Origin: a phage | DNA: 23,441 nucleotides | Strand: one strand, 5' to 3' | Sequence record: PZ049722.1 | Shown here: positions 1,314 through 17,535 of the stretch, piece by piece | How positions within the stretch are numbered: the first letter of the stretch is position 1 | How the letters are laid out: every line of letters starts with the position of its first letter | Program-made: the position numbers and the translations under genes | The notes under the pieces: model-generated | The model's input: only the letters and a program-made list of their open reading frames with translations | What the model was told of the DNA's origin: nothing | The model's database searches: none

Positions 1314-2388
1314 ATGGCCAGCGGCCGAAGAGCATTTCCTGATGAACAGCCAGCCGGGGGGGGCAACACTGCGCCCCAACCAACAAGGTGCTGGAAGCTT
1401 CGATGCGGCTGTGCGCTGTGTTTGAAGAGAGGCAAGACCCTGCGCCAGCAAATGCGGCCGGCCCTCGCAACCCGGAAAACAAATCAAACGAAAACCTGCA
1501 CACCACAAGGCCAACCCCGGCTCCACCGGAGGTGCTGCGACCAGACACCCAAAGCGGCGTTCAACCTCGACCGCGACCCCTTCGACGACCTCGAGTTCGG
1601 CCGGATGAGATGCGTCCCTGAGCTCGATATCCGGCTAACATCTCCGTGCCGAAACACACTACGCGCCACCACGGCTCTCCTGGCCGGCTGGTGGGCGAGT
1701 CCGGCGCCGGAGCTGCGCCGGCGCCAGCCCGGCCAGCTGCCGCCTTGCAACCAGCGGTGATCGTCATCGAACCCTACGTGCTGGGCATGGAGGACCAACT
1801 CCTATAGGGAAGGACACGGAAGGCCACCCGCACGGACAGTCCGCCCGCCGCTGCTGGAACCCTTGCGAAAAGCTGAAATCCAGCCCCCCGAAGCCCTGCT
1901 TCTGCAAAAGATGTACGCCATGCTCAAAGCGTCACGGCGCAGGCTTTCGCCACGTGCTGATCATCGAAGAGGTGCACTCCAGCCTGCCCATCCCCACGCT
2001 CACGCACCTCAAGCGCATGCGTGACCAGCTCGAACACCTGGCTTCGACAATGCTGTCCATGTCCTCATCGGCCAGCCCAGCTGCTGATCAAACGAGCCCG
2101 CAAGGCGACGTGCGTCGAGGTGGCCCAGCCCATCGAGATTGCGCAACTGCAGCCCATCCTCACGTCGGTGACCTGGACTGCGCACCTGGCATTTTCGTTG
2201 CAAGCACGCCGGCAAGCAGCTCCGAGCTGATCGATGCCAGCGGCGTGCAGGCCATCATCGAACGCCTGGGCAGCTCGGGTAAAGTACGTGCCAGCCAGCT
2301 CCACCCGCTGGCCATCGGCAACATGTTCAACGCCGCCTCAACCTCGCCGCCGAAATCGGCGAAAGCCGCATCACCGCTGATGTTGTGA
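1314..2388 (+). pseudogene. Decayed copy of the MuB-like ATPase gene, frameshifted
   Basis: ORF 1314..1760 has AFNLDRDPFDDL and ORF 1954..2388 has LIIEE.HS.LPIPTL.HLKRMRDQLEH and LIDASGVQAIIERLGSSGK, matching the 390-aa protein at 8300..9472 with indels. Confidence 0.65.
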
Positions 2389-2402
2389 AGGGGGTGTGAG
2401 CC

Positions 2403-2828
2403 ATGGCCATCACCATCGAACAAATCATGGAGCAGGCTCAGGTGTACGCCTCGGCCTGGAGCCTGGTCGGCGGGCCGTTCGACCAGGGCAACCTGCTGCA
2501 GCAGGCCGAGCTGGAGAAGCGGTGCTGCTGGAGATGGTCACTGCCTTCGAGGACGAACCCATGCCGCAGGGGCCCAGGAAGCGCAGCTCGACCTGGCTAA
2601 GCCGCTGATCGAGTGGCACCAGCACCGCATTGGCAACCTCAGCAAGTTGCAGCAGGCGGTAGAGGGCACTGAGATCCGCCTCGGCGAGGCTGATGCCGAT
2701 CCCATCGTCCTGCAGGCGCGATGCTAAAAGGCTGGCGCTTCGCCTTGGCGATTGCCGAGCAGCAGTTCGAGAAGTTCCCGCTGTCCATCGAGCGCAAAGC
2801 TCCCACCAGCGACGAGGAGGATGACCAT
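2403..2828 (+). pseudogene. Frameshifted copy of the 141-aa early gene found intact at 7871..8296
   Basis: ORF 2403..2600 shares the first 39 residues (MAITIEQIMEQAQVYASAWSLVGGPFDQGNLLQQAELEK) with the 141-aa protein and then leaves frame; 1-bp deletions seen relative to the right arm. Confidence 0.6.
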
Positions 2829-3176
2829 GCGCGCTCCCAACGTCATCCCGCTCAGCGCCAGATCGCCGCTGAGATCTCCATCCAACACGCGCTGCCCATG
2901 TGCACCGTGCTGACCCCTGAACTGGCCGACAAGCTCCGCGCCCTCAACGACATGACCCGCCGCCTGCGCGCGGCGGGCGTGCGTATCGAGGCCGCATCCC
3001 CGCTCGACGGCAAGATCTTCATCAACGCCGAAGACTCCGACCAGCTCGCCGCATCGTTCCGCAGTGAGTGGCGCGGCGTGAGTTGGAGCACCAAAGGCGT
3101 CCACACCATCAACAGCGTCCGCCTCGGCGGCTGCCAAGTCTGCTGGCTTACGCCAGTGAAGGAGCAGGAGTCATGA
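2826..3176 (+). pseudogene. Frameshifted copy of the 118-aa early gene found intact at 7518..7874
   Basis: ORF 2721..3176 carries the C-terminal 100 residues of the 118-aa protein fused to the upstream frame; about two 1-bp deletions near 2815-2860. Confidence 0.6.
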
Positions 3177-3355
3177 GCCTCGAAGCACGCCTGCGCGAAG
3201 CGCTGGAGCTGCTCAAACGCAGCGCCGGCTACGCCTCGGCCTATCCGACCATCGGTGGCCACAAGCTCAACGACGAGATCTGCCGCTTCCGCGAGGCGGT
3301 ACAGGCCGAACTCGAAACCAACGCCCAACAAGCCGAGGAAGAAACCCATGGCTGA
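3173..3355 (+). CDS. Small hypothetical early protein (60 aa), duplicate of 7339..7521
   Basis: Internal ATG with GGAG-type RBS; identical to right-arm copy. Confidence 0.5.
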   Translation: MSLEARLREALELLKRSAGYASAYPTIGGHKLNDEICRFREAVQAELETNAQQAEEETHG

Positions 3356-3968
3356 GCAAATCGCAATCCCCGAAGGCTTCGTCAAGAATGCTGCCGGCCA
3401 TCTGGTGCCGGAACACCAGGTGCGCGAGCACGACAAGCTGCGCGACAGCGTCGCCCGCGAGCTGGCCAACCAGGCCGTGGCCATCAGCGAGGCGCTGGGC
3501 GCGTTCAAGGCTAAGGCCCTGGGCGATATCGCCGACCTGATCGCCATCTCGGCCGAGAAGTACCAGGTCAAGCTCGGCGGCAAGAAGGGCAACGTCTCGA
3601 TCGTCACCTACGACGGCCGCTACAAGATCGAGCGCGCCATGGCCGAGCGCATCACCTTCACCGAGGAGATCCTCGCGGCCAAGGAGCTGATCGACCAGTG
3701 CATCCGCAAATGGAGCGAAGGCGCCGACCAGCACCTGCGCATCCTGGTCGACCGCGCGTTCCGCGCCAACCGCCAGGGCCAGATCAAGACCGGCGACGTG
3801 CTCAGCCTGCTGCGCGTCGAGATCGAAGACCCCGACTGGCAGCGCGCGATGGAGGCCCTGAAGGACTCCATCCAGGTCAACGGCACCGCCGTATACATCC
3901 GCGTCTACCAGCGCGTCGGCAACACCGACCGTTACGAGCCCATCAGCCTCGACATTGCGAAGGTGTGA
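3348..3968 (+). CDS. Conserved phage early protein (206 aa, possibly DUF3164-like), duplicate of 6726..7346
   Basis: Identical protein on both arms; start MAEQIAIPEGF after RBS. Confidence 0.55.
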   Translation: MAEQIAIPEGFVKNAAGHLVPEHQVREHDKLRDSVARELANQAVAISEALGAFKAKALGDIADLIAISAEKYQVKLGGKKGNVSIVTYDGRYKIERAMAERITFTEEILAAKELIDQCIRKWSEGADQHLRILVDRAFRANRQGQIKTGDVLSLLRVEIEDPDWQRAMEALKDSIQVNGTAVYIRVYQRVGNTDRYEPISLDIAKV

Positions 3969-3970
3969 CC

Positions 3971-4678
3971 ATGGACCAGGATCGCATTCTCGAAAAGATC
4001 AAGAAGTGCATGGAGATGGCCAAGGGCAAGGGCTCGAATCCGAACGAGGCCGAAATCGCCCTGCGCCAGGCGCATAAGCTGATGGAGGCCTACAACCTGG
4101 AGATGGGCGACGTCCTGGCCAGCATGGCCGGTGAGGTCACCATCGAAGCCGGCTCGGATGGTACCCCACCCACCTGGCGTATCCGCCTGGCTCAGGTGTG
4201 CGCCCATGCGTTTGGCACGCGCATGATCATCACGCAGAAGCTCACGGACCACTTCGACGTTGTAGGCGCCTTCATCTTTGTGGGCTGCGCAGCGGCACCA
4301 GAGCTGAGCGGATACGCCTACCAAGTGCTGGAGCGGCAGCTGCAGAAGGCTCGACGTGAGTTCCTGCAGTCACCGAAGAACAAGCGCTGCAAGCGCTCAA
4401 CCAAGGTCGCGCGCGGCGATCACTTCGCTAACGGCTGGATTGATGCCGTGTACCTCAAGGTCGACCAGTTCGCTGGCGTTGACGACAACATCGCCGAAGC
4501 GATCGAAGCCTACATGGCGAAGCACCACGCCGACCTGGGCAAGCACGAAATGAAGCGCCGCAAGCTCAAAGCCCGCGATGAAGGTGCCGCCGAGGCCGGT
4601 TACCAGGCTGGCAAGAGCGCCCAACTGCACCACGGACTTGGCCACAAGCCCGTCGCCCGACTGACTCAGGGGGTGTGA
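3971..4678 (+). CDS. DUF2786-like phage protein (235 aa), duplicate of 6016..6723
   Basis: N-terminus MDQDRILEKIKKCMEMAKGKGSNPNEAEIALRQAHKLMEAYNLE resembles the DUF2786 signature; identical on both arms. Confidence 0.55.
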   Translation: MDQDRILEKIKKCMEMAKGKGSNPNEAEIALRQAHKLMEAYNLEMGDVLASMAGEVTIEAGSDGTPPTWRIRLAQVCAHAFGTRMIITQKLTDHFDVVGAFIFVGCAAAPELSGYAYQVLERQLQKARREFLQSPKNKRCKRSTKVARGDHFANGWIDAVYLKVDQFAGVDDNIAEAIEAYMAKHHADLGKHEMKRRKLKARDEGAAEAGYQAGKSAQLHHGLGHKPVARLTQGV

Positions 4679-4679
4679 G

Positions 4680-4904
4680 ATGCAAACCCTTGAATGCACC
4701 GTGAAGTACTACATGGGTGCCTACCAGACCAACACCGTGCGCAGCCAGCGCGCCAGCTGCAGCCACTCCGAGGACGAGGCCGTGCGCCACCTGGGCGTAA
4801 AGCTGTTCGGCGAGCAGCTCCACCACGTCGAGCGCATCGATCTCAAACCCAGCGATCAGCCGGGCATGAGCCGCTGGCTGATCGTTGGTCGGGAGGTGCA
4901 GTGA
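4680..4904 (+). CDS. Small hypothetical protein (74 aa), duplicate of 5790..6014
   Basis: Identical ORF on both arms; starts 2 nt after upstream stop. Confidence 0.45.
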   Translation: MQTLECTVKYYMGAYQTNTVRSQRASCSHSEDEAVRHLGVKLFGEQLHHVERIDLKPSDQPGMSRWLIVGREVQ

Positions 4905-5327
4905 TGGGCCATCCAATTTTCCAAGACGCCCCCTCAAGGGACATGACCAAGGCTCAGGAGCGCCAGGCCGAGCTAGATGCGCAGGTCGAAGCCTTCCTGG
5001 CCAAGGGCGGGGAGATCAAGGCCTTCGACAACTTCCGCCGTCCTGATCCAGAGTGGGCCCTGGCGCTCGAAGTCGATCAACCCCGAGCAGCAGAAGCCAG
5101 CTCAGGCTGCGCCCATCAAGGCGAAACCGGCCAAGCCCGCCGCTCCTGTGAAGGCAAAGCCGGTACCGGAGGTGCCAGCCGAACCGGTGGCGGTGGCTAC
5201 CATCGACCTCAGCGCTGAGCTGCGCGCCTTGCGCAAGCAGACTGCAGCCATCAACCGCCCGGCCTGGCGCGAGTTGAGGTCTTTCGAGGACTCGACGCCA
5301 GCAACGCGGCGCAGCAGCGCGCGATAG
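4904..5327 (+). pseudogene. Frameshifted copy of the 130-aa K/P/A-repeat protein encoded intact at 5395..5790
   Basis: Identical for 47 residues after MGHPIF, then leaves frame near 5041-5050 where the two arms differ by an indel; the proper frame continues in ORF 4977..5327. Confidence 0.6.
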
Positions 5328-5398: not shown

Positions 5399-5790
5399 GC
5401 GCGACCACCCATAGAGCAGCTCAGGCGATTAAGGCGGCGGTTGATGGCTGCAGTCTGCTTGCGCAAGGCGCGCAGCTCAGCACTGAGGTCGATGGTAGCC
5501 ACCACCACCGGTTCGGCTGGCACCTCCGGTACCGGCTTTGCCTTCACAGGAGCGGCGGGCTTGGCCGGTTTCGCCTTGATGGGCGCAGCCTGAGCTGGCT
5601 TCTGCTGCTCGGGGTTGATCGACTTCGAGCGCCAGGGCCCACTCTCGATAGGACGGCGGAAGTTGTCGAAGGCCTTGATCTCCCCGCCCTTGGCCAGGAA
5701 GGCTTCGACCTGCGCATCTAGCTCGGCCTGGCGCTCCTGAGCCTTGGTCATGTCCCTTGAGGGGGCGTCTTGGAAAATTGGATGGCCCAT
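5395..5790 (-). CDS. Hypothetical early protein (131 aa) with K/P/A-rich repeat tail
   Basis: Start MGHPIF overlaps upstream stop; contains PAQAAPIKAKPAKPAAPVKAKPVPEVPAEP. Confidence 0.5.
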   Translation of the reverse strand: MGHPIFQDAPSRDMTKAQERQAELDAQVEAFLAKGGEIKAFDNFRRPIESGPWRSKSINPEQQKPAQAAPIKAKPAKPAAPVKAKPVPEVPAEPVVVATIDLSAELRALRKQTAAINRRLNRLSCSMGGRA

Positions 5791-6014
5791 CACTGCACCT
5801 CCCGACCAACGATCAGCCAGCGGCTCATGCCCGGCTGATCGCTGGGTTTGAGATCGATGCGCTCGACGTGGTGGAGCTGCTCGCCGAACAGCTTTACGCC
5901 CAGGTGGCGCACGGCCTCGTCCTCGGAGTGGCTGCAGCTGGCGCGCTGGCTGCGCACGGTGTTGGTCTGGTAGGCACCCATGTAGTACTTCACGGTGCAT
6001 TCAAGGGTTTGCAT
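5790..6014 (-). CDS. Small hypothetical protein (74 aa)
   Basis: ORF in operon context, tight spacing to neighbours. Confidence 0.45.
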   Translation of the reverse strand: MQTLECTVKYYMGAYQTNTVRSQRASCSHSEDEAVRHLGVKLFGEQLHHVERIDLKPSDQPGMSRWLIVGREVQ

Positions 6015-6015
6015 C

Positions 6016-6723
6016 TCACACCCCCTGAGTCAGTCGGGCGACGGGCTTGTGGCCAAGTCCGTGGTGCAGTTGGGCGCTCTTGCCAGCCTGGTAACCGGCC
6101 TCGGCGGCACCTTCATCGCGGGCTTTGAGCTTGCGGCGCTTCATTTCGTGCTTGCCCAGGTCGGCGTGGTGCTTCGCCATGTAGGCTTCGATCGCTTCGG
6201 CGATGTTGTCGTCAACGCCAGCGAACTGGTCGACCTTGAGGTACACGGCATCAATCCAGCCGTTAGCGAAGTGATCGCCGCGCGCGACCTTGGTTGAGCG
6301 CTTGCAGCGCTTGTTCTTCGGTGACTGCAGGAACTCACGTCGAGCCTTCTGCAGCTGCCGCTCCAGCACTTGGTAGGCGTATCCGCTCAGCTCTGGTGCC
6401 GCTGCGCAGCCCACAAAGATGAAGGCGCCTACAACGTCGAAGTGGTCCGTGAGCTTCTGCGTGATGATCATGCGCGTGCCAAACGCATGGGCGCACACCT
6501 GAGCCAGGCGGATACGCCAGGTGGGTGGGGTACCATCCGAGCCGGCTTCGATGGTGACCTCACCGGCCATGCTGGCCAGGACGTCGCCCATCTCCAGGTT
6601 GTAGGCCTCCATCAGCTTATGCGCCTGGCGCAGGGCGATTTCGGCCTCGTTCGGATTCGAGCCCTTGCCCTTGGCCATCTCCATGCACTTCTTGATCTTT
6701 TCGAGAATGCGATCCTGGTCCAT
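6016..6723 (-). CDS. DUF2786-like phage protein (235 aa)
   Basis: Same protein as 3971..4678; internal start MDQDRILEK. Confidence 0.55.
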   Translation of the reverse strand: MDQDRILEKIKKCMEMAKGKGSNPNEAEIALRQAHKLMEAYNLEMGDVLASMAGEVTIEAGSDGTPPTWRIRLAQVCAHAFGTRMIITQKLTDHFDVVGAFIFVGCAAAPELSGYAYQVLERQLQKARREFLQSPKNKRCKRSTKVARGDHFANGWIDAVYLKVDQFAGVDDNIAEAIEAYMAKHHADLGKHEMKRRKLKARDEGAAEAGYQAGKSAQLHHGLGHKPVARLTQGV

Positions 6724-6725
6724 GG

Positions 6726-7346
6726 TCACACCTTCGCAATGTCGAGGCTGATGGGCTCGTAACGGTCGGTGTTGCCGACGCGCTGGTAGACGCGGATGTA
6801 TACGGCGGTGCCGTTGACCTGGATGGAGTCCTTCAGGGCCTCCATCGCGCGCTGCCAGTCGGGGTCTTCGATCTCGACGCGCAGCAGGCTGAGCACGTCG
6901 CCGGTCTTGATCTGGCCCTGGCGGTTGGCGCGGAACGCGCGGTCGACCAGGATGCGCAGGTGCTGGTCGGCGCCTTCGCTCCATTTGCGGATGCACTGGT
7001 CGATCAGCTCCTTGGCCGCGAGGATCTCCTCGGTGAAGGTGATGCGCTCGGCCATGGCGCGCTCGATCTTGTAGCGGCCGTCGTAGGTGACGATCGAGAC
7101 GTTGCCCTTCTTGCCGCCGAGCTTGACCTGGTACTTCTCGGCCGAGATGGCGATCAGGTCGGCGATATCGCCCAGGGCCTTAGCCTTGAACGCGCCCAGC
7201 GCCTCGCTGATGGCCACGGCCTGGTTGGCCAGCTCGCGGGCGACGCTGTCGCGCAGCTTGTCGTGCTCGCGCACCTGGTGTTCCGGCACCAGATGGCCGG
7301 CAGCATTCTTGACGAAGCCTTCGGGGATTGCGATTTGCTCAGCCAT
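6726..7346 (-). CDS. Conserved phage early protein (206 aa, possibly DUF3164-like)
   Basis: Same protein as 3348..3968. Confidence 0.55.
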   Translation of the reverse strand: MAEQIAIPEGFVKNAAGHLVPEHQVREHDKLRDSVARELANQAVAISEALGAFKAKALGDIADLIAISAEKYQVKLGGKKGNVSIVTYDGRYKIERAMAERITFTEEILAAKELIDQCIRKWSEGADQHLRILVDRAFRANRQGQIKTGDVLSLLRVEIEDPDWQRAMEALKDSIQVNGTAVYIRVYQRVGNTDRYEPISLDIAKV

Positions 7347-7521
7347 GGGTTTCTTCCTCGGCTTGTTGGGCGTTGGTTTCGAGTTCGGCCTGTACCGCCT
7401 CGCGGAAGCGGCAGATCTCGTCGTTGAGCTTGTGGCCACCGATGGTCGGATAGGCCGAGGCGTAGCCGGCGCTGCGTTTGAGCAGCTCCAGCGCTTCGCG
7501 CAGGCGTGCTTCGAGGCTCAT
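7339..7521 (-). CDS. Small hypothetical early protein (60 aa)
   Basis: Same protein as 3173..3355. Confidence 0.5.
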   Translation of the reverse strand: MSLEARLREALELLKRSAGYASAYPTIGGHKLNDEICRFREAVQAELETNAQQAEEETHG

Positions 7522-7874
7522 GACTCCTGCTCCTTCACTGGCGTAAGCCAGCAGACTTGGCAGCCGCCGAGGCGGACGCTGTTGATGGTGTGGACGCCTT
7601 TGGTGCTCCAACTCACGCCGCGCCACTCACTGCGGAACGATGCGGCGAGCTGGTCGGAGTCTTCGGCGTTGATGAAGATCTTGCCGTCGAGCGGGGATGC
7701 GGCCTCGATACGCACGCCCGCCGCGCGCAGGCGGCGGGTCATGTCGTTGAGGGCGCGGAGCTTGTCGGCCAGTTCAGGGGTCAGCACGGTGCACATGGGC
7801 AGCGCGTGTTGGATGGAGATCTCAGCGGCGATCTTGGCGCTGAGCGGGATGACGTTGGGAGCGCGCATGGTCAT
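7518..7874 (-). CDS. Hypothetical early protein (118 aa)
   Basis: Intact ORF in early operon; the left-arm copy is frameshifted. Confidence 0.5.
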   Translation of the reverse strand: MTMRAPNVIPLSAKIAAEISIQHALPMCTVLTPELADKLRALNDMTRRLRAAGVRIEAASPLDGKIFINAEDSDQLAASFRSEWRGVSWSTKGVHTINSVRLGGCQVCWLTPVKEQES

Positions 7875-8296
7875 TCCTCCTCGTCGCTGGTGGGAGCTTT
7901 GCGCTCGATGGACAGCGGGAACTTCTCGAACTGCTGCTCGGCAATCGCCAAGGCGAAGCGCCAGCCTTTTAGCATCGCGCCCTGCAGGACGATGGGATTG
8001 GCATCAGCCTCGCCGAGGCGGATCTCAGTGCCCTCTACCGCCTGCTGCAACTTGCTGAGGTTGCCAATGCGGTGCTGGTGCCACTCGATCAGCGGCTTAG
8101 CCAGGTCGAGCTGCGCTTCCTGGGCCCCTGCGGTATGGGCTTCGTCCTCGAAGGCAGTGACCATCTCCAGCAGCACCAGCTTCTCCAGCTCGGCCTGCTG
8201 CAGCAGGTTGCCCTGGTCGAACGGCCCGCCGACCAGGCTCCAGGCCGAGGCGTACACCTGAGCCTGCTCCATGATTTGTTCGATGGTGATGGCCAT
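7871..8296 (-). CDS. Hypothetical early protein (141 aa)
   Basis: Intact ORF directly downstream of the B gene; the left-arm copy is frameshifted. Confidence 0.5.
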   Translation of the reverse strand: MAITIEQIMEQAQVYASAWSLVGGPFDQGNLLQQAELEKLVLLEMVTAFEDEAHTAGAQEAQLDLAKPLIEWHQHRIGNLSKLQQAVEGTEIRLGEADANPIVLQGAMLKGWRFALAIAEQQFEKFPLSIERKAPTSDEEE

Positions 8297-8299
8297 GGC

Positions 8300-9472
8300 T
8301 CACACCCCCTTCACAACATCAGCGGTGATGCGGCTTTCGCCGATTTCGGCGGCGAGGTTGAGGGCGGCGTTGAACAGGTTGCCGATGGCCAGCGGGTAGA
8401 GCTGGCTGGCACCGTCCTTACCCGAGCTGCCCAGGCGTTCGATGATGGCCTGCACGCCGCTGGCATCGATCAGCTCGTCGAGCTGCTTGCCGGCGTGCTT
8501 GCAACGAAATGCCAGGTGCGCGTCCAGGTCACCGACGGTGATGGGCTGCAGTTGCGCAATCTCGATGCGCTGGGCCACCTCGCGCACGTCGCCGTTGCGC
8601 GGGCTGAGTTTGATCAGCAGCTCGGGCTGGCCGATGAGGATGATGGACAGCAGTTTGTCGAAGCCGTGTTCGAGCTGGTCACGCATGCGCTTGAGGTGCT
8701 TGAGCGTGGGGATGGGCAGCGAGTGCGCCTCTTCGATGATCAGCACATGGCGGAAGCCTGCGCCGTGGCTGGCTTTGAGCGTGGCGTGCATCTGCGCGAA
8801 GCGGGCTTCGGGGCTGGATTTGGCTTTCTCCAGCGGCGCCACAGCGGCCATCACAGACTCGGCAATGTGGGTGGCCTTCAGGGATTTGCCCTTGGTGTCG
8901 TTGTCCTCCATGCCCAGCACGTAGGGTTCGATGACGATCACCGGCTCATTGCGCAGGCGGTGCGCCAGGTCGCGGCGCAGCGTGCTTTTGCCGGCGCCGG
9001 ACTCGCCCACCACGGCCAGGAAGCCATCATGGCGCGCGGTCTGGTACATGCTCTCGCGGATGTAGCGGATATCGGGGCTCAGGTACATCTCATCGGCCGA
9101 CTTGAGGTCGTCGAAGGGGTCGCGGTGCAGGTTGAACGCCCGCTTGGTGTCTGGTCGCAGCACTTGTTTAGCCATTAGCATGTCGGGGCACTCCTGGGTT
9201 TCGTGATTGTTTTCCGGGGTTGCAGGGGCCTGCGCGTTGGCGCGCGCAGGCTCCATCTCTTCAAACGCGGCGCGCACAGCGTCGAACTCCGCGCCTTGTT
9301 GCATCAGGTACTCAGTGATGCCCCAGGCCAGCTGGTTCATCGGGATGCTCTTGGGCCACTGGCCGTGGTTGATCAGTTGGGCGATGGCTGCCGGGCTGAG
9401 CTTCACCGCCCTGGCCAGGTCGGCCTGGCCCTTGCCCACGCTGGCCAGCACTTGCTTGAGACGTTTCATCAC
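8300..9472 (-). CDS. Mu B-like transposition ATPase / target DNA activator (390 aa)
   Basis: Walker A GESGAGKST, N-terminal HTH-like region, sits directly downstream of and overlapping the transposase gene. Confidence 0.8.
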   Translation of the reverse strand: MMKRLKQVLASVGKGQADLARAVKLSPAAIAQLINHGQWPKSIPMNQLAWGITEYLMQQGAEFDAVRAAFEEMEPARANAQAPATPENNHETQECPDMLMAKQVLRPDTKRAFNLHRDPFDDLKSADEMYLSPDIRYIRESMYQTARHDGFLAVVGESGAGKSTLRRDLAHRLRNEPVIVIEPYVLGMEDNDTKGKSLKATHIAESVMAAVAPLEKAKSSPEARFAQMHATLKASHGAGFRHVLIIEEAHSLPIPTLKHLKRMRDQLEHGFDKLLSIILIGQPELLIKLSPRNGDVREVAQRIEIAQLQPITVGDLDAHLAFRCKHAGKQLDELIDASGVQAIIERLGSSGKDGASQLYPLAIGNLFNAALNLAAEIGESRITADVVKGV

Positions 9473-14325: not shown

Positions 14326-14535
14326 TTAGGCGGCGACGGGTTCGCCGGTTTTGATGCCTAGGGCCACGGCGATTTCGTGGGCCTGGCCGTAGTTGGCTTT
14401 GTCGAAGCCGTTGAGCACGCGGTACACCGCGTTGCGCTTGTAGCCGTGCTCTTCGGCCCACTGGGTGATGGTGATGCCGCGCTGGCGGAATCGCTGTTTG
14501 ACCTGTTCAGGGGTCAGTGCCTTCTGGGTAGCCAT
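14326..14535 (-). CDS. Ner-like DNA-binding protein (69 aa)
   Basis: MATQKALTPEQVKQRFRQRGITITQWAEEHGYKRNAVYRVLNG...AHEIAVALGI fits the Ner/Nlp pattern; AAGGAG RBS; divergent from the repressor gene. Confidence 0.7.
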   Translation of the reverse strand: MATQKALTPEQVKQRFRQRGITITQWAEEHGYKRNAVYRVLNGFDKANYGQAHEIAVALGIKTGEPVAA

Positions 14536-14589
14536 GGCGGTGGCTCCTTTTGGGTTGCTGAATGATGTTTGTGTTTTGTTGGGCTGATG

Positions 14590-14635
14590 ATGGTGCGGAT
14601 ATCCGCACCTGTCAAGGAAAAGTGCGGAAAACTGC
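14590..14635. promoter_or_regulatory. Immunity-region operator and early promoter: perfect 18-bp palindrome GGTGCGGATATCCGCACC plus a GTGCGGA half-site; minus-strand -35 TTGACA abuts the palindrome
   Basis: Palindrome at about 14592..14609; half-site repeat at about 14623..14629; reverse complement of tgtcaa at about 14611..14616 gives TTGACA with the palindrome as spacer. Confidence 0.5.
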
Positions 14636-15073
14636 ATGATTGGTGAGCGACTAAAAGAAGAGCGCAAGCGCTTAGGTCTTACCCAGCCCGGGTTGGCCGA
14701 GGTTGCTGGCGCGGCTAAGAGGACTGTCATTGACTGGGAGAAGGGCGTTTCGTCGCCTACAGCAGCCCAGTTAGAGGCACTTTCCAGGGTTGGAGTGGAT
14801 GTGCTTTTCGTCGTCACCGGTATTCGCGGTCAAACTGTGACCAATGAGTCAAATAGCGCGACGTCGCGCTATTTGACTGAAAACTCAAATCCGGTCACGC
14901 ATTCAGTGGAGGCTGAGCCGCTGGGTGAATACCGGCTAAACCGGCGCGAGAAGGCGCTACTGGAGAATTACCGAGGCTCGGACGAAGAAGGACGACGAGC
15001 CATGGAGAGCACCGCGAGTGCTCTGGCGCACAGGGACAGTGCGAAGAAGAAAGGACGCCAAGGCGGCGAATGA
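14636..15073 (+). CDS. XRE-family HTH transcriptional regulator, putative prophage repressor (145 aa)
   Basis: N-terminus ERLKEERKRLGLTQPGLAEVAGAAKRTVIDWEKG is a Cro/C1-type HTH; divergent from the ner-like gene across the operator. Confidence 0.7.
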   Translation: MIGERLKEERKRLGLTQPGLAEVAGAAKRTVIDWEKGVSSPTAAQLEALSRVGVDVLFVVTGIRGQTVTNESNSATSRYLTENSNPVTHSVEAEPLGEYRLNRREKALLENYRGSDEEGRRAMESTASALAHRDSAKKKGRQGGE

Positions 15074-15095
15074 CAGCGCGTATGGGGATTAGGGA

Positions 15096-15833
15096 ATGAG
15101 CAAGGCTCTGATTGTTCTAGGGGTGGTTTTATCTCTGACAGGATGTGCAACTGACTACAGCAAGAAAACCCCGGCTGAAGTGGCAAAGGAGGTGCGTGTT
15201 CTCGACAGTGAGTTCAATGCGCATCGCCTGCTGATGGCGCCAGTGGTGAAAGCGAGCCCCATGTTCGGCATGAACTATTCAGCTCGTTTGGTTAGATCCC
15301 AGGCAAAAGCTGATGGCAGCGTTACACACGTGTTGACCGTTGATTGGGACTACTCAAGTAGCCGATGGATGTTTTTCAGCTCCGCGACGTTGCCGGGCGC
15401 TAGGTCGCTGGTGGTGCGTGCCAACGACAGGCATGTGCGTAGCTGCGGTAGCTATGGCAGTTGCAGTTACACGGAAAGGGTCTCGGCGATCATTCCGCTG
15501 GATGTACTGATTGGGCTTGCTGCAAGTCGTAGCGACATGAACATCAGATTCGGTTCACAGCAGGGCTACGTGGATCTGGCTCTACCGGCAAACTACGTTC
15601 TCGGTTACCTGCAGGGCACCTCAACAATCGCTGAGGCGCAAGGAGGCTCTGCGGCTCCAGCTCCTGCCGCCTCTCGAATCCCGAAATGGGAGCCTGTCCC
15701 AACTCGCCCTGCGGGCCAGCCTGCTGAGGCGGTGGCCAAGAGCAAGGAACAGCAGCTCCAGGAGCTAAAGAACACGCCGGGGCTGAGTTACGAGGAATAT
15801 CAGCGGCGGTATCGGATGATCATGGGGCAGTGA
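15096..15833 (+). CDS. Lipoprotein (245 aa), candidate lysogenic-conversion or superinfection-exclusion factor
   Basis: Signal peptide with lipobox LSLTGC; ATG 23 nt after the repressor stop with GGGA RBS; codon usage appears AT-richer than the phage core. Confidence 0.65.
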   Translation: MSKALIVLGVVLSLTGCATDYSKKTPAEVAKEVRVLDSEFNAHRLLMAPVVKASPMFGMNYSARLVRSQAKADGSVTHVLTVDWDYSSSRWMFFSSATLPGARSLVVRANDRHVRSCGSYGSCSYTERVSAIIPLDVLIGLAASRSDMNIRFGSQQGYVDLALPANYVLGYLQGTSTIAEAQGGSAAPAPAASRIPKWEPVPTRPAGQPAEAVAKSKEQQLQELKNTPGLSYEEYQRRYRMIMGQ

Positions 15834-15844
15834 GGCGACGAACG

Positions 15845-15890
15845 GTACATTGTTCCCATTGCACAATGGGAACAATGTTCCTATAGTGGA
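15845..15890 (+). promoter_or_regulatory. Sigma70-like promoter (-35 TTGCAC, 17-bp spacer, -10 TATAGT) overlapped by a 14+14 bp inverted repeat CATTGTTCCCATTG-ca-CAATGGGAACAATG
   Basis: Read directly from sequence; strong AGGAG RBS follows before the ATG at 15932. Confidence 0.5.
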
Positions 15891-15931
15891 CACATGCCAG
15901 CCACAACGGCGGCGAATCAAGGAGAGAAGCC

Positions 15932-16270
15932 ATGATCACCATCAAATACACTCTGACCCAAGGCATGAGCGGCGCAGGTACTCACACTGAGCTGGAAGTG
16001 GCCACTGGCCCGCGTAATCTGATCAAGTTTGCTGAGGCATTCGATAGCGTGCGTGATCGCCTGAAGGCCGCCTACGGCAACGTTGGATGTGGTCGGGTCT
16101 GGGTAGAAATTGACGGTATTGAGGTTTCCGAGTCCGAGCTGAAAAAATTGACTCGCCAGGACTACGAAATTGACATGCGCGACTACAAGGACGGCATTCG
16201 TTCGAGCAAGCCGGATAGCCTGACCATTCGCGCCACTGATCTGCTTGCAGACCTGCGGGAGGCAGCATGA
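15932..16270 (+). CDS. Hypothetical protein (112 aa), first gene of the cargo operon
   Basis: ORF with AGGAG RBS; stop overlaps the next start (ATGA); no family recognised. Confidence 0.6.
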   Translation: MITIKYTLTQGMSGAGTHTELEVATGPRNLIKFAEAFDSVRDRLKAAYGNVGCGRVWVEIDGIEVSESELKKLTRQDYEIDMRDYKDGIRSSKPDSLTIRATDLLADLREAA

Positions 16271-16860
16271 GCGCTCGGAATAAATACGCAAATTGGGCGC
16301 TTGGCGTGCCGGCTGCGCGGCTTCGTCAGCGTAGCCGCATGAGCACCTATGACGAGGCCGCTACCAGCGGCCTCGCGTTCGAGCTGCAAGAGCTGACCGG
16401 GCTGCGTTTCGATGAGTCGGCCTGGCTGGCCGGCGTAACGTGCCATGTAGCGATTACGCATCCTGCACTGCTCAAGTGGGCCGGTGAGCCGCCAGATGCG
16501 CCGGGATTCATCTACACCTGGGCGACCTGTGCGCCGAATCTACGAGGCTCGCAGCGCGTCGACATCAACGAACGGCGCTTTGAGCGCTGGCTGAAATCCG
16601 CCACCGATGCTGATGCCCTGGCTGACTGGTACGGCTACACCCTGGAGGCGCTAAAAGTTGTGCGCGGGAAACACTTCGATATCCGCACGTTGTTCGATAT
16701 CGGCCGCTTGCGCGCCCTTCACTTCGCCGACGAGCTGCCGCAGGTCGGGCCGCGCGCGTTCTCAGGCTACTGCGCTCTTGAGTTCTACAATCACCAGCCG
16801 CAGGGGCTGGGCGGGGCAGTACCTCGGCAAATTCCGACCGAATTGTTGATTGGCTCATGA
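16267..16860 (+). CDS. Hypothetical protein (197 aa), second gene of the cargo operon
   Basis: Translationally coupled to both neighbours; no family recognised. Confidence 0.6.
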   Translation: MSARNKYANWALGVPAARLRQRSRMSTYDEAATSGLAFELQELTGLRFDESAWLAGVTCHVAITHPALLKWAGEPPDAPGFIYTWATCAPNLRGSQRVDINERRFERWLKSATDADALADWYGYTLEALKVVRGKHFDIRTLFDIGRLRALHFADELPQVGPRAFSGYCALEFYNHQPQGLGGAVPRQIPTELLIGS

Positions 16861-17060
16861 AACCAGACGCCTCCCTACACAACCCAGACCCGCGCTATAT
16901 CGCGGGTCTGGTCGAGCAGACCGGGCTGCTGAAGGGCGAGGTTGCTCGACTGCTGGGTATCACGCCAAAGGCCCTTCGCAACTACATGGACGAGAAATTG
17001 AAGCGCGAAATTCCCTACTCAACCCAGTTCGCCCTTGAGTGCCTGGCCGCTCAGGAATAA
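16857..17060 (+). CDS. Small HTH DNA-binding protein (67 aa), third gene of the cargo operon
   Basis: GEVARLLGITPKALRNYMDE is a classic helix-turn-helix; ATGA overlap with the upstream gene. Confidence 0.6.
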   Translation: MKPDASLHNPDPRYIAGLVEQTGLLKGEVARLLGITPKALRNYMDEKLKREIPYSTQFALECLAAQE

Positions 17061-17090
17061 CGCCAGGAATAATCCGCACACCGTTTTAGA

Positions 17091-17121
17091 GGGCGCCGCA
17101 ATGGCGCCCTTTCGATTTTTG
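17091..17121 (+). terminator. Rho-independent terminator: 7-bp GC stem GGGCGCC/GGCGCCC, 5-nt loop, then a T-rich tract
   Basis: gggcgccGCAATggcgccc followed by tttcgatttttg, 30 nt after the stop of 16857..17060. Confidence 0.7.
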
Positions 17122-17235
17122 CCCCGTCCAAATTACTCCGCGCGCGCGCGAGGCGAAGCTGTGATCTCTGCCGTTTAAGACCGGCACTTATTAGCACAGC
17201 AACGGCCAGGGATTGGCCAACCTCGGAGCGCAATC

Positions 17236-17535
17236 ATGTCTCAAGCCTGCAAGCCCAAGCGCCGCCTACTGCCGCGCATGACCGTTTTCGCTGTTATCTC
17301 CCTGATGCTGCTGACCGCCATCTGGTTCGTGCGGCCCGAGCAACTGCAAGTGGTGCTGTACAAGGCCAGCCTGGTGACGCTCGGCGCCGTGCTGGGTTAC
17401 TACATCGACCGTGCGGTGTTCCTGACCGAAGCCCGGCCGCATGAGTGCATTGGCGGCATCCACATCGTTGGCGCCTGGCTGCGGCGCGCCCTGATCGTGC
17501 TGGCCTGCATCCTCGGCCTGACGCTGGGGCTCTAG
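17236..17535 (+). CDS. Small membrane protein with about 3 TM segments, putative holin
   Basis: Hydrophobic segments VFAVISLMLLTAIWFV, ASLVTLGAVLGYYI and ALIVLACILGLTLGL; sits directly upstream of the endolysin. Confidence 0.5.
   Translation: MSQACKPKRRLLPRMTVFAVISLMLLTAIWFVRPEQLQVVLYKASLVTLGAVLGYYIDRAVFLTEARPHECIGGIHIVGAWLRRALIVLACILGLTLGL

What the first reader, a model, noticed from the sequence alone, without database searches (positions are those of the whole stretch)
15845..15890. 14+14 bp perfect inverted repeat across the cargo-operon promoter
CATTGTTCCCATTG-ca-CAATGGGAACAATG covers the proposed -35 and spacer of a promoter with a near-consensus -10 (TATAGT). That is the layout of a repressor-controlled promoter. 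The sequence differs from the GTGCGGA operator of the immunity region, so a different regulator is implied.
Basis: seen in the sequence. Interest (0 to 1): 0.5.

Follow-up and report, generated by a model that had tools for sequence, protein, structure and literature searches.

The report
Aca1 operator pair at anti-CRISPR promoter
The palindrome is real and is the known double binding site of the small repressor Aca1 on the promoter of a phage anti-CRISPR operon; the element is ordinary, but the operon it controls carries two undescribed genes, one predicted to fold like the Cse2/Cas11 subunit of the bacterial CRISPR complex.

Summary
There is a perfect inverted repeat at 15848-15861 / 15864-15877, extendable to 15+15 nt, which no shuffle matched. 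It ends four bases upstream of TATAGT (15882-15887).

It can be named precisely.
- The 67-aa protein is an Aca1 homologue (E 7e-16 to the solved JBD30 Aca1 structure).
- The whole intergenic region aligns with the characterised acr-aca1 promoters of phages DMS3 and MP29.
- The long repeat is two 13-bp Aca1 operators in mirror orientation. IR1 is GGTACATTGTTCC (15844-15856). IR2 is GGAACAATGTTCC (15869-15881) and fills the spacer between -35 TTGCAC and -10 TATAGT.
- The conserved Aca1-binding RNA hairpin of the 5' UTR follows at 15896-15913.

The GGAAC half-site is common among Aca1 loci, so the element is a new member of a known kind.

The parts
15844..15856 (.). IR1, the upstream Aca1 operator GGTACATTGTTCC. 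It is a 13-bp palindrome with one mismatch (T at position 3).
   Evidence: It aligns with IR1 of DMS3 and MP29, GGCACATTGTGCC. It starts 25 bp before IR2, as in every two-site Aca1 locus examined.
15847..15878 (.). It is IR1 and IR2 in mirror orientation plus symmetric flanks.
   Evidence: As RNA it would fold at -22.8 kcal/mol, z -4.8.
15859..15864 (+). Proposed -35 hexamer TTGCAC, 17-nt spacer to the -10.
   Evidence: Same position as TTGCGA in DMS3 and MP29. The scan tool calls TGCACA one base to the right, with a 16-nt spacer.
15869..15881 (.). IR2, a perfect 13-bp Aca1 operator GGAACAATGTTCC. It fills the -35/-10 spacer and abuts the -10.
   Evidence: It aligns with IR2 of DMS3, MP29 and JBD30, GGCACAATGTGCC. 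PMC8633003 gives the Aca1-IR2 co-crystal and names IR2 as the site responsible for repression. The identical IR2 is found upstream of 5 other distinct Aca1 loci of the short clade.
15882..15887 (+). -10 hexamer TATAGT.
   Evidence: TATAGT or a similar hexamer directly follows IR2 in many Aca1 loci.
15896..15913 (+). 5'-UTR RNA hairpin GCC-A-GCC-ACAAC-GGC-GGC, the conserved Aca1-binding RNA motif. It ends 18 nt before the start codon.
   Evidence: It is predicted in the MFE fold. The same hairpin is found in nearly all Aca1 loci fetched. The motif and its binding by Aca1 are described in PMC13551039.
15920..15924 (+). Shine-Dalgarno AGGAG for the first gene.
   Evidence: Read from the sequence. 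It is conserved in the alignment.
15932..16270 (+). First cargo gene, 112 aa, no known family. It is always paired with the 197-aa gene.
   Evidence: No hit in Pfam, PHROGs, NCBIfam or PDB sequences. The AF2 model has pLDDT 88 and no significant Foldseek match in the PDB. Only 6 relatives were found among 5.8 billion clusters.
16267..16860 (+). Second cargo gene, 197 aa. Its start overlaps the upstream stop (ATGA). Predicted Cse2/Cas11 (type I-E) fold.
16857..17060 (+). aca1, the 67-aa HTH repressor. Its start overlaps the upstream stop.
   Evidence: E 7e-16 to PDB 7c0g/7fa3 Aca1. It is 50-52% identical to DMS3, JBD93, MP29 and D3112 Aca1 and 66% to phage TC7. It matches phrog_3865.
17088..17112 (+). 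Intrinsic terminator that closes the operon: 11-bp stem with 7 G-C pairs, then a T-run.

Best explanation
The inverted repeat is the regulatory core of an acr-aca1 operon carried as a moron by a B3-like (Beetrevirus-type) transposable Pseudomonas prophage.

How it most likely works:
- A strong sigma-70-type promoter (TTGCAC, 17 nt, TATAGT) fires on entry of the phage DNA. It transcribes three translationally coupled genes: 112 aa, 197 aa and aca1.
- Aca1 is a dimeric HTH protein. As it accumulates it binds the 13-bp palindrome IR2, which occupies the -35/-10 spacer and abuts the -10. This excludes RNA polymerase and shuts the operon down to a low level, including in the lysogen.
- The second site, IR1, lies 25 bp upstream. 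It binds Aca1 as well and acts as a decoy that tunes repression.
- The transcript starts about 7-10 nt after the -10 and begins with a small hairpin that Aca1 also binds.
- Each operator is itself a palindrome, their centre bases are complementary (T and A), and the inner flanks mirror each other. The two sites therefore read as one 15+15 inverted repeat.

Shown here: the sequence architecture, its homology to characterised promoters, and the identity of the regulator.
Taken from the literature on JBD30 Aca1: binding, repression, the decoy role of IR1 and RNA binding.
Inferred: that this diverged Aca1 (Lys38, Ala39, Asn42 in place of Arg44, Val45, Tyr48) binds these particular sites, and that the two cargo genes are anti-defence genes.
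For: 1. The regulator is an Aca1 homologue.
- The 67-aa product matches solved JBD30 Aca1 structures at E 7e-16 over residues 2-64.
- tblastn finds it in 128 Pseudomonas phage records. In the records listed, the match lies directly downstream of annotated AcrIE3, AcrIF2, AcrIF3 or AcrIF7 genes where such annotation exists.

2. The promoter is homologous to known acr-aca1 promoters.
- DMS3 reads GGCACATTGTGCC-TATTGCGAATTA-GGCACAATGTGCC-TAATCT...CATGCCAGCCACAACGGCGAGGCG.
- The window reads GGTACATTGTTCC-CATTGCACAATG-GGAACAATGTTCC-TATAGT...CATGCCAGCCACAACGGCGGCG.

3. The experimental basis exists for the family. PMC8633003 reports a co-crystal of the Aca1 dimer on IR2 (AGGCACAATGTGCC), half-site GGCAC read by helix 3, Kd 74 nM. 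IR1 binds equally well, but only IR2 is responsible for repression.

4. The closest Aca1 relatives carry the same site pair. Short-clade proteins with recognition helix T(P/A)(K/R)ALRNY all have GGAACA(A/T)TGTTCC x2, 25 bp apart, followed by TATAGT or TATGAT. This holds whatever gene lies between, an AcrIE3-like gene or 65-67-aa unknowns.

5. The architecture is general. Across the 88 Aca1 loci examined (the window, 7 fetched earlier and 80 IMG/VR viral loci), a site of the form GGNAC-N3-GTNCC was found upstream of aca1 in 55, and every two-site locus has a spacing of 25 bp.

6. Operator and regulator co-vary at the level of whole modules. The same 112/197 pair with the same leader sits in a P2-like phage (L008) behind a different palindrome, ATATAAACC-N6-GGTTTATAT. 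There it is followed by a different HTH protein, 26% identical to this Aca1 and weakly KorA-like.

7. The 5'-UTR hairpin of PMC13551039 is present at the expected position.
Against: - No binding or expression data exist for this locus.
- Three of the five base-contacting residues of JBD30 Aca1 differ here (R44K, V45A, Y48N), as does one flank-contacting residue (R22A), and loop 3-4 is 3 residues shorter. Binding to these sites is therefore inferred from co-occurrence, not shown.
- IR1 is imperfect (GGTAC / GGAAC).
- The -35 match is poor (3-4 of 6).
- No terminator separates this operon from the upstream repressor-lipoprotein genes. Read-through transcription could make promoter control only part of the story.
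Confidence: 0.9

Rival explanations
1. The repeat works mainly as an RNA or DNA hairpin. It would be a terminator, insulator or processing site for the transcript coming from the upstream repressor-lipoprotein genes, not a protein-binding operator.
For: - The hairpin is strong, -22.8 kcal/mol, z -4.8.
- It starts 14 nt after the stop codon of the upstream gene.
- No other terminator-like site lies between 15073 and 15932 on the + strand.
- The equivalent long hairpin also forms in DMS3 and L028 and, by sequence, in TC7.
Against: - No T-run follows it (TTCCTATAGTGG), and the terminator scan does not call it.
- In JBD30 the centres of IR1 and IR2 are C and A, so the long stem is interrupted there, yet that system works (PMC8633003).
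- About 60% of acr-aca1 operons have only one site and so no long hairpin (PMC13551039).
- In relatives the conserved parts are the two 13-mers. The apex of the stem varies.
- An accessory role cannot be excluded.
Confidence: 0.07
2. One long operator is bound by a regulator other than the 67-aa protein. Candidates are the prophage repressor, a host factor, or a TetR-family protein of the SbtR type, which uses the same 13-mer in other phyla.
For: The double GGAACAWTGTTCC motif was found at 35 loci of the species-representative genome collection. Most are in Actinomycetota, Acidobacteriota, Chloroflexota and Alphaproteobacteria. Twelve of them have a 185-213-aa ORF directly adjacent; three of these were scanned and are SbtR-like TetR regulators. 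Another protein family can therefore read this sequence.
Against: - None of those 35 loci is in Pseudomonas, and none carries an Aca1 gene.
- In phage loci the site pair travels with aca1.
- The immunity region uses a different repeat, GTGCGGA.
Confidence: 0.02
3. The repeat is a recombination scar or cassette boundary with no regulatory role, or a chance palindrome.
For: Among contigs that carry the identical cassette, sequence identity starts only about 20 nt upstream of the repeat, inside the end of the upstream gene. The repeat is therefore close to a module junction.
Against: - Chance is excluded: 0 of 100 shuffles reach 15 nt.
- The element is conserved in position and architecture relative to the -10, the leader and the start codon across dozens of unrelated phage backgrounds.
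Confidence: 0.01

Closest known systems
acrIF1-aca1 promoter of Pseudomonas phage JBD30 and its close copies in DMS3 (acrIE3-aca1) and MP29 (acrIF2-aca1)
   Same: - Two 13-bp palindromic operators 25 bp apart, with IR2 between -35 and -10.
- A conserved leader CATGCCAGCCACAACGGCG with its hairpin.
- The regulator gene is last in the operon, and the same protein family (Aca1) is involved (PMC8633003; PMC13551039).
   Different: - The half-site is GGAAC (GGTAC in one half of IR1) rather than GGCAC.
- The Aca1 is of a shorter clade: 67 aa, recognition helix TPKALRNY against SDRVMRYY, and a 3-residue deletion before Arg59.
- The host phage is B3-like, and the operon sits between the immunity genes and the lysis cassette. 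In D3112/JBD-like phages it sits between head genes.
- The cargo is about 0.9 kb in two genes, rather than one small acr gene.
acr-aca1 loci of phage TC7 and of contigs L019, L028 and L066/L072 (short-clade Aca1)
   Same: The same Aca1 clade (66-81% identity) and an identical IR2. The promoter is nearly identical, including the CCCATTGC...ATGGG flanks and TATAGT.
   Different: Their cargo is a single 65-68-aa gene, AcrIE3-like in L028. Their IR1 is perfect.
Other Aca-controlled anti-CRISPR promoters (Aca2, Aca7, Aca10, Aca11, Aca12, Aca14)
   Same: The logic is the same: a small dimeric repressor, encoded last in the operon, binds an inverted repeat that overlaps the -35/-10 (PMC12658196; PMC13551039).
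   Different: The protein families and operator sequences are unrelated.
Cas-derived anti-CRISPRs (AcrIB3, AcrIB4, AcrVIA2; 'viral cas genes', bioRxiv 10.1101/2023.06.24.545427)
   Same: A phage gene related to a Cascade subunit sits in an anti-defence locus. [quoted passage not shown]
   Different: Those were recognised by sequence and derive from type I-B Cas proteins or Cas3 in Listeria. Here the resemblance is to Cse2/Cas11 of type I-E and is visible essentially only in the predicted fold. No activity has been tested.
Operators of SbtR-like TetR regulators
   Same: The same 13-mer GGAACA(A/T)TGTTCC, in two copies that flank or overlap a promoter.
   Different: The regulator family is unrelated, the hosts belong to other phyla, and there is no link to phages or aca1. 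This is convergence, not homology.

Membership tests
Aca1 (anti-CRISPR-associated protein 1) | Sequence homology over the whole HTH domain to JBD30 Aca1 | tested here: met
   phmmer gives E 7e-16 to 7c0g_A, residues 2-64 against 8-73. The protein is 50-52% identical to DMS3, MP29 and D3112 Aca1.
Aca1 (anti-CRISPR-associated protein 1) | Conservation of the residues that contact DNA in the Aca1-IR2 crystal (R44, V45, R47, Y48, R59; S42, Y49; R22, Q32) | tested here: inconclusive
   R47, Y49 and R59 are kept. S42T and R44K are conservative changes. V45A, Y48N, R22A and Q32K differ (residue roles from PMC8633003). The same substitutions recur in the whole short clade, which always sits next to GGAAC sites.
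Aca1 (anti-CRISPR-associated protein 1) | Encoded as the last gene of an operon, downstream of acr gene(s) | tested here: met
   The start codon overlaps the stop of the 197-aa gene, and a terminator follows 28 nt after the stop. The closest relatives follow AcrIE3-like genes. Whether the two upstream genes here are acr genes is not known.
Aca1 (anti-CRISPR-associated protein 1) | Binds the inverted repeats as a dimer and represses the operon promoter | not testable with these tools
   This needs EMSA or ITC and a reporter assay.
acr-aca1 promoter architecture | A palindromic Aca1 site (GGNAC-N3-GTNCC) overlapping the core promoter, directly upstream of the -10 | tested here: met
   IR2 at 15869-15881 abuts TATAGT at 15882-15887.
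acr-aca1 promoter architecture | An optional second site upstream, present in about 40% of operons | tested here: met
   IR1 is at 15844-15856. The 25-bp start-to-start spacing is the same as in all two-site loci examined (frequency from PMC13551039).
acr-aca1 promoter architecture | A roughly 20-nt hairpin motif at the start of the 5' UTR, ending about 20 nt before the start codon | tested here: met
   The hairpin is at 15896-15913, folds in the MFE structure and ends 18 nt before the ATG (PMC13551039).
acr-aca1 promoter architecture | [quoted passage not shown] | not testable with these tools
   This needs 5'-RACE or dRNA-seq.
Anti-CRISPR proteins (the 112-aa and 197-aa products) | Inhibition of a CRISPR-Cas system | not testable with these tools
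   This needs plaque or transformation assays on type I-E, I-F and I-C strains.
Anti-CRISPR proteins (the 112-aa and 197-aa products) | Homology to a described Acr family | tested here: not met
   No hit in Pfam, NCBIfam or PHROGs or in PDB sequences, and no annotated phage homologue.
Anti-CRISPR proteins (the 112-aa and 197-aa products) | Guilt by association: same operon as an aca gene, in several backgrounds | tested here: met
   The pair is found with short-clade Aca1 (window, L003-L005; L006-L007 are truncated contigs that stop before the third gene), with classic Aca1 (L012-L014), and with a KorA-like HTH in a P2-like phage (L008). In L010 it sits next to a gene whose N-terminus matches AcrIF25 at E 3e-9.
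Cse2 / Cas11 (small subunit of type I-E Cascade) | The all-helical Cse2 fold | tested here: met
Cse2 / Cas11 (small subunit of type I-E Cascade) | Sequence membership in PF09485 above the curated threshold | tested here: not met
   The window protein gives no hit. Two of 14 relatives reach E 0.0056. hhalign against E. coli CasB gives E 0.1, although the shared INERR motif is aligned.
Cse2 / Cas11 (small subunit of type I-E Cascade) | Encoded within a cas operon next to cas8e and cas7e | tested here: not met
   It lies in a phage moron between the immunity and lysis genes, and no cas gene was seen in the ORF list of the window or among the called genes and Pfam hits of related loci.

The most novel reading that the evidence does not exclude
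The Aca1-controlled operon encodes a previously undescribed anti-CRISPR pair. Its 197-aa member would be a phage-borne mimic of Cse2/Cas11, the small subunit of type I-E Cascade. It would enter or cap Cascade in place of the host Cse2 dimer and block R-loop locking or Cas3 recruitment. The 112-aa partner would assist. This would be the first Cas11-derived Acr, and it is one that sequence searches for 'viral cas genes' cannot see.
Probability: 0.35. Interest if true: 0.7.

Novelty: new member of a known kind. Interest (0 to 1): 0.4.

Why it matters
The palindrome itself adds one more instance to a well-studied regulatory device, so on its own it matters little.

Its value is as a flag. An Aca1 operator plus aca1 is the standard signpost for anti-CRISPR genes, and here it points at two genes that no database recognises.
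- The pair is rare: 5-6 clusters in 5.8 billion protein clusters, and 15 representatives in 1.8 billion.
- It has moved between at least three phage types, behind three or four different regulators.
- One member is predicted to have the fold of a Cascade subunit.

If it is an inhibitor, it would extend the 'Acrs evolve from cas genes' idea to type I-E and to a subunit not yet implicated. It would also give a new tool for controlling type I-E editing systems.

The locus also shows that B3-like transposable phages carry acr-aca1 cassettes at a different genomic position from the D3112/JBD-like phages in which they were discovered.

Tried and rejected
1. A toxin-antitoxin pair autoregulated by the first gene. 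I considered this because of the overlapping ATGA codons. I dropped it once the third gene proved to be Aca1 and the promoter proved homologous to acr promoters.

2. The 67-aa gene as part of the B3-like backbone. PM105 and Ps60 have a gene of the same length (gp21) after the repressor. It is not homologous, only 8% identical.

3. A one-to-one recognition code. The idea was that Tyr48->Asn in the recognition helix matches C->A at half-site position 3. It looked attractive after TC7, L019 and L028, but the survey of 88 Aca1 loci refuted it. Many Tyr48-type Aca1 proteins sit next to GGAAC sites, and mixed GGCAC/GGAAC sites exist. GGAAC is therefore a common variant, not a new one.

- The window has no further copy of the half-site at 2 or fewer mismatches.
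- The exact 30-mer is absent from IMG/VR.
- The double 13-mer pattern gave 35 loci in the species-representative genome collection, none with aca1. Many have an adjacent TetR-sized ORF, and the three scanned are SbtR-like TetR regulators.
- The same pattern gave 7 hits in IMG/VR, of which 2 are Aca1 loci.

5. Searching for the 197-aa gene in IMG/VR found nothing. None of the 80 IMG/VR Aca1 loci carries the 112/197 pair.

7. The Ralstonia P2-like phage homologue (38% identical) has no 112-aa partner and no obvious HTH neighbour. I did not pursue it.

8. Stanley et al. 2019 (Cell), the primary paper on IR1 and IR2, is not held in the library. Its findings are cited as reported in PMC8633003.

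Full report
**1. The observation**

The sequence at 15840-15892 reads gaacGGTACATTGTTCCCATTGCACAATGGGAACAATGTTCCTATAGTGGaca.
They extend by one pair to 15+15 (15847-15878).
- The 14-mer occurs nowhere else in the window at 2 or fewer mismatches.
- In 100 Markov shuffles of the window, the longest perfect arm with a loop of 10 nt or less reached 14 once and never 15.
- TATAGT lies at 15882-15887. The consensus scan calls a sigma-70-like promoter there.

**2. Context**

The window is a Pseudomonas prophage of the B3-like transposable group, G+C about 65%.
- The only nucleotide matches of 14500-17500 to deposited phages are to the Ner-like gene of the Beetrevirus phages PM105 and Ps60, and of U11, Young and D14F, whose genus was not looked up.
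- The local genes are:
  - Ner-like HTH, 14326-14544 (-)
  - an HTH_3 repressor, 14636-15073 (+)
  - a lipoprotein, 15096-15833 (+)
  - the palindrome
  - a 112-aa gene, 15932-16270
  - a 197-aa gene, 16267-16860
  - a 67-aa HTH gene, 16857-17060
  - a strong terminator, 17088-17112
  - the holin, 17236-17535, and the lysis and packaging genes
- G+C drops to 55-61% across 14500-17500.
- In PM105 and Ps60 the repressor is followed by an unrelated 67-aa gene and a reverse-strand gene. The lipoprotein and the three-gene unit are therefore accessory DNA.

**3. What the 67-aa protein is**

- tblastn finds it in 128 Pseudomonas phage records. In DMS3, MP29, JBD93 and BUCT566 the match lies directly downstream of an annotated anti-CRISPR gene; in D3112 the neighbouring gene is annotated only as hypothetical.
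- It matches the solved structures of JBD30 Aca1 (7c0g, 7fa3, 7vjm, 7vjn) at E 7e-16 to 2e-14, over essentially its full length.
- It belongs to a shorter clade of Aca1: 67-68 aa (one member 73), recognition helix T(P/A)(K/R)ALRNY, and a 3-residue deletion before the conserved Arg of loop 3-4. The classic clade has (S/T/G)DR(V/A/S)MRY(Y/H).

**4. What the palindrome is**

The upstream regions of known acr-aca1 operons align with the window over the whole intergenic space.
- DMS3 has GGCACATTGTGCC (IR1), TATTGCGAATTA, GGCACAATGTGCC (IR2), TAATCT, then the leader CATGCCAGCCACAACGGCGAGGCG.
- The window has GGTACATTGTTCC (15844-15856), CATTGCACAATG, GGAACAATGTTCC (15869-15881), TATAGT, then CATGCCAGCCACAACGGCGGCG.

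The structural paper on Aca1 (PMC8633003) reports the following.
- One Aca1 dimer binds one such 13-bp palindrome, half-site GGCAC, through helix 3: Arg47 and Arg44 on the two G, Tyr48 on C, Val45/Tyr48 on the A:T pair, and Arg59 on the last C:G.
- IR1 and IR2 bind with similar affinity (53 and 74 nM).
- Only IR2 is responsible for repression. IR1 titrates Aca1 away from it.

The long inverted repeat is therefore two dimer sites. Each is a palindrome, and the centre bases are complementary (T in IR1, A in IR2). The inner flanks CCCATTG / CAATGGG also mirror each other, so the pair reads as one 15+15 repeat.

The closest relatives confirm which parts matter.
- L028 (AcrIE3-like + Aca1), L019 and L066 keep both 13-mers, the 25-bp register and TATAGT. 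The four central bases differ: CACA here, ATCA and GCGA there.
- TC7 keeps the two sites with a different intervening sequence.
- The set examined comprised the window, 7 loci fetched earlier and 80 IMG/VR viral Aca1 loci, 88 in all. A GGNAC-N3-GTNCC site lay upstream of aca1 in 55 of them, and every two-site locus had the 25-bp spacing.

**5. The leader**

PMC13551039 describes a roughly 20-nt hairpin directly after the transcription start of acr-aca1 operons. It ends about 20 nt before the start codon and is bound by Aca1.
- The window has it at 15896-15913, GCC-A-GCC-ACAAC-GGC-GGC, ending 18 nt before the ATG. It is predicted in the minimum-energy fold.
- The same hairpin is present in nearly all the Aca1 loci fetched.

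**6. Mechanism**

Putting this together, TTGCAC (15859-15864), 17 nt, TATAGT is an early promoter.
- Aca1, made from the last cistron, binds IR2 in the spacer and abuts the -10. This excludes RNA polymerase.
- IR1 buffers the free Aca1 pool.
- The leader hairpin offers a third Aca1 site on the RNA. Its effect is unknown even in JBD30.

What is shown here is the architecture and the homologies. Binding by this particular Aca1 is inferred. Three of the five base-contacting residues differ (R44K, V45A, Y48N).

I first read Y48N together with the C-to-A change at half-site position 3 as a recognition code. The survey refutes that. Tyr48-type proteins are found next to GGAAC, GGCAC and mixed sites. 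GGAAC is simply the commoner variant.

**7. Rivals**

- A hairpin or terminator role is possible as a side effect: -22.8 kcal/mol, and no other terminator after the lipoprotein gene. But there is no U-tract. About 60% of acr-aca1 operons have a single site and so no long stem. Conservation follows the 13-mers, not the stem apex.
- Another regulator is unlikely. The scan of species-representative genomes for the double 13-mer found 35 loci, none in Pseudomonas and none with aca1. Twelve have a 185-213-aa ORF directly adjacent, and the three that were scanned are SbtR-like TetR regulators in other phyla. This is a case of convergence.

**8. The cargo**

The 112-aa and 197-aa genes have no hit in Pfam, PHROGs, NCBIfam or PDB sequences.

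They are rare: 5 and 6 clusters respectively in 5.8 billion, and 15 representatives for the 197-aa protein in 1.8 billion.

They always occur together. The pair was found in these settings:
- behind the identical promoter, and followed by short-clade Aca1 where the contig reaches the third gene (L003-L005), in contigs whose upstream gene differs (L003-L007);
- behind a near-identical promoter with a classic Aca1 (L012-L014);
- in a P2-like phage after gpD, with the same leader but a different palindrome (ATATAAACC-N6-GGTTTATAT) and a different small HTH protein (L008);
- at 56-60% identity next to a gene whose N-terminus matches AcrIF25, E 3e-9 (L010).

That is the classic guilt-by-association pattern of anti-defence genes.

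Structure predictions:
- The AF2 model of the 197-aa protein is confident, pLDDT 92 and pTM 0.89.
- Foldseek was not significant, but its best TM-scores were also to Cse2.
- Sequence support is faint but consistent. Two of 14 family members touch PF09485 at E 0.0056. hhalign lines up the family's near-invariant INERRF with INERRI of E. coli CasB, E 0.1.
- The 112-aa model (pLDDT 88) has no significant PDB match.

Cas-derived anti-CRISPRs are known for type I-B (AcrIB3, AcrIB4) and Cas3. I found no paper in the held library that describes a Cse2/Cas11-like one. Activity is untested, so this remains the novel reading and not the verdict.

**9. Verdict**

- The palindrome is real.
- The element is a textbook Aca1 operator pair in a new genomic setting, so it is a new member of a known kind.
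- Interest in the element itself is low. The overall score is raised by the undescribed, Cse2-like cargo that it flags.

Noticed in passing
window 14847-14878: This is the longest perfect palindrome in the window: AGTCAAATAGCGCGAC|GTCGCGCTATTTGACT, 16+16 with no spacer. It lies in frame inside the prophage repressor ORF (14636-15073), in the linker after the HTH domain. No shuffle reached this length.
   Followed up: no
window 2223-5259 versus 5436-8477: A roughly 3-kb inverted duplication at 95-100% identity. Its core of 2185 nt is 100% identical, and 176 unique bases lie between the arms. It looks like two related copies of one end region facing each other, or an assembly artefact.
   Followed up: partly
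window 16884-16911: An 11+11 perfect inverted repeat with a 6-nt loop, CCAGACCCGCG-CTATAT-CGCGGGTCTGG. It lies inside the aca1 coding sequence, codons 10-18.
   Followed up: no
L031-L064 (species-representative genomes): The same double 13-mer GGAACA(A/T)TGTTCC flanks promoters in Actinomycetota, Acidobacteriota, Chloroflexota and Alphaproteobacteria. Twelve of these loci have a 185-213-aa ORF directly adjacent, and the three scanned are SbtR-like TetR regulators (PF21597 + PF00440). The operator is convergent with that of Aca1.
   Followed up: partly
window 16267-16860, residues about 88-140 of the 197-aa protein: This roughly 50-residue stretch, which contains the INERRF motif, matches as 5 to 21 separate stretches in four giant proteins: P0027 (2569 aa), P0032 (1992 aa), P0034 and P0035.
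   Followed up: no
window 15096-15833; L003, L004, L006, L081: The last 30-60 residues of the upstream lipoprotein (...GLSYEEYQRRYRMIMGQ) recur at the end of otherwise different genes directly upstream of acr-aca1 promoters. This conserved tail marks the left junction of the cassette.
   Followed up: partly
L017 (phage BUCT566) 1625-1665, and about 20 IMG/VR loci: Aca1 homologues with recognition helix SWPGFRNY have no GGNAC-N3-GTNCC site upstream of their acr gene. The leader hairpin is kept where the upstream sequence was read (BUCT566). This subgroup probably uses a different operator.
   Followed up: no
L010 1718-2152: A 144-aa gene follows the diverged 112/197 pair. Its N-terminal 40 residues match AcrIF25 (8jdh, E 3e-9). 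The rest weakly resembles a controller (C) HTH protein, so it may be an Acr-regulator fusion.
   Followed up: no
window 14593-14628: GTGCGGA occurs three times, two direct and one inverted, in the 91-nt gap between the divergent Ner-like and repressor genes. The window-wide count of 7 is not above chance.
   Followed up: partly
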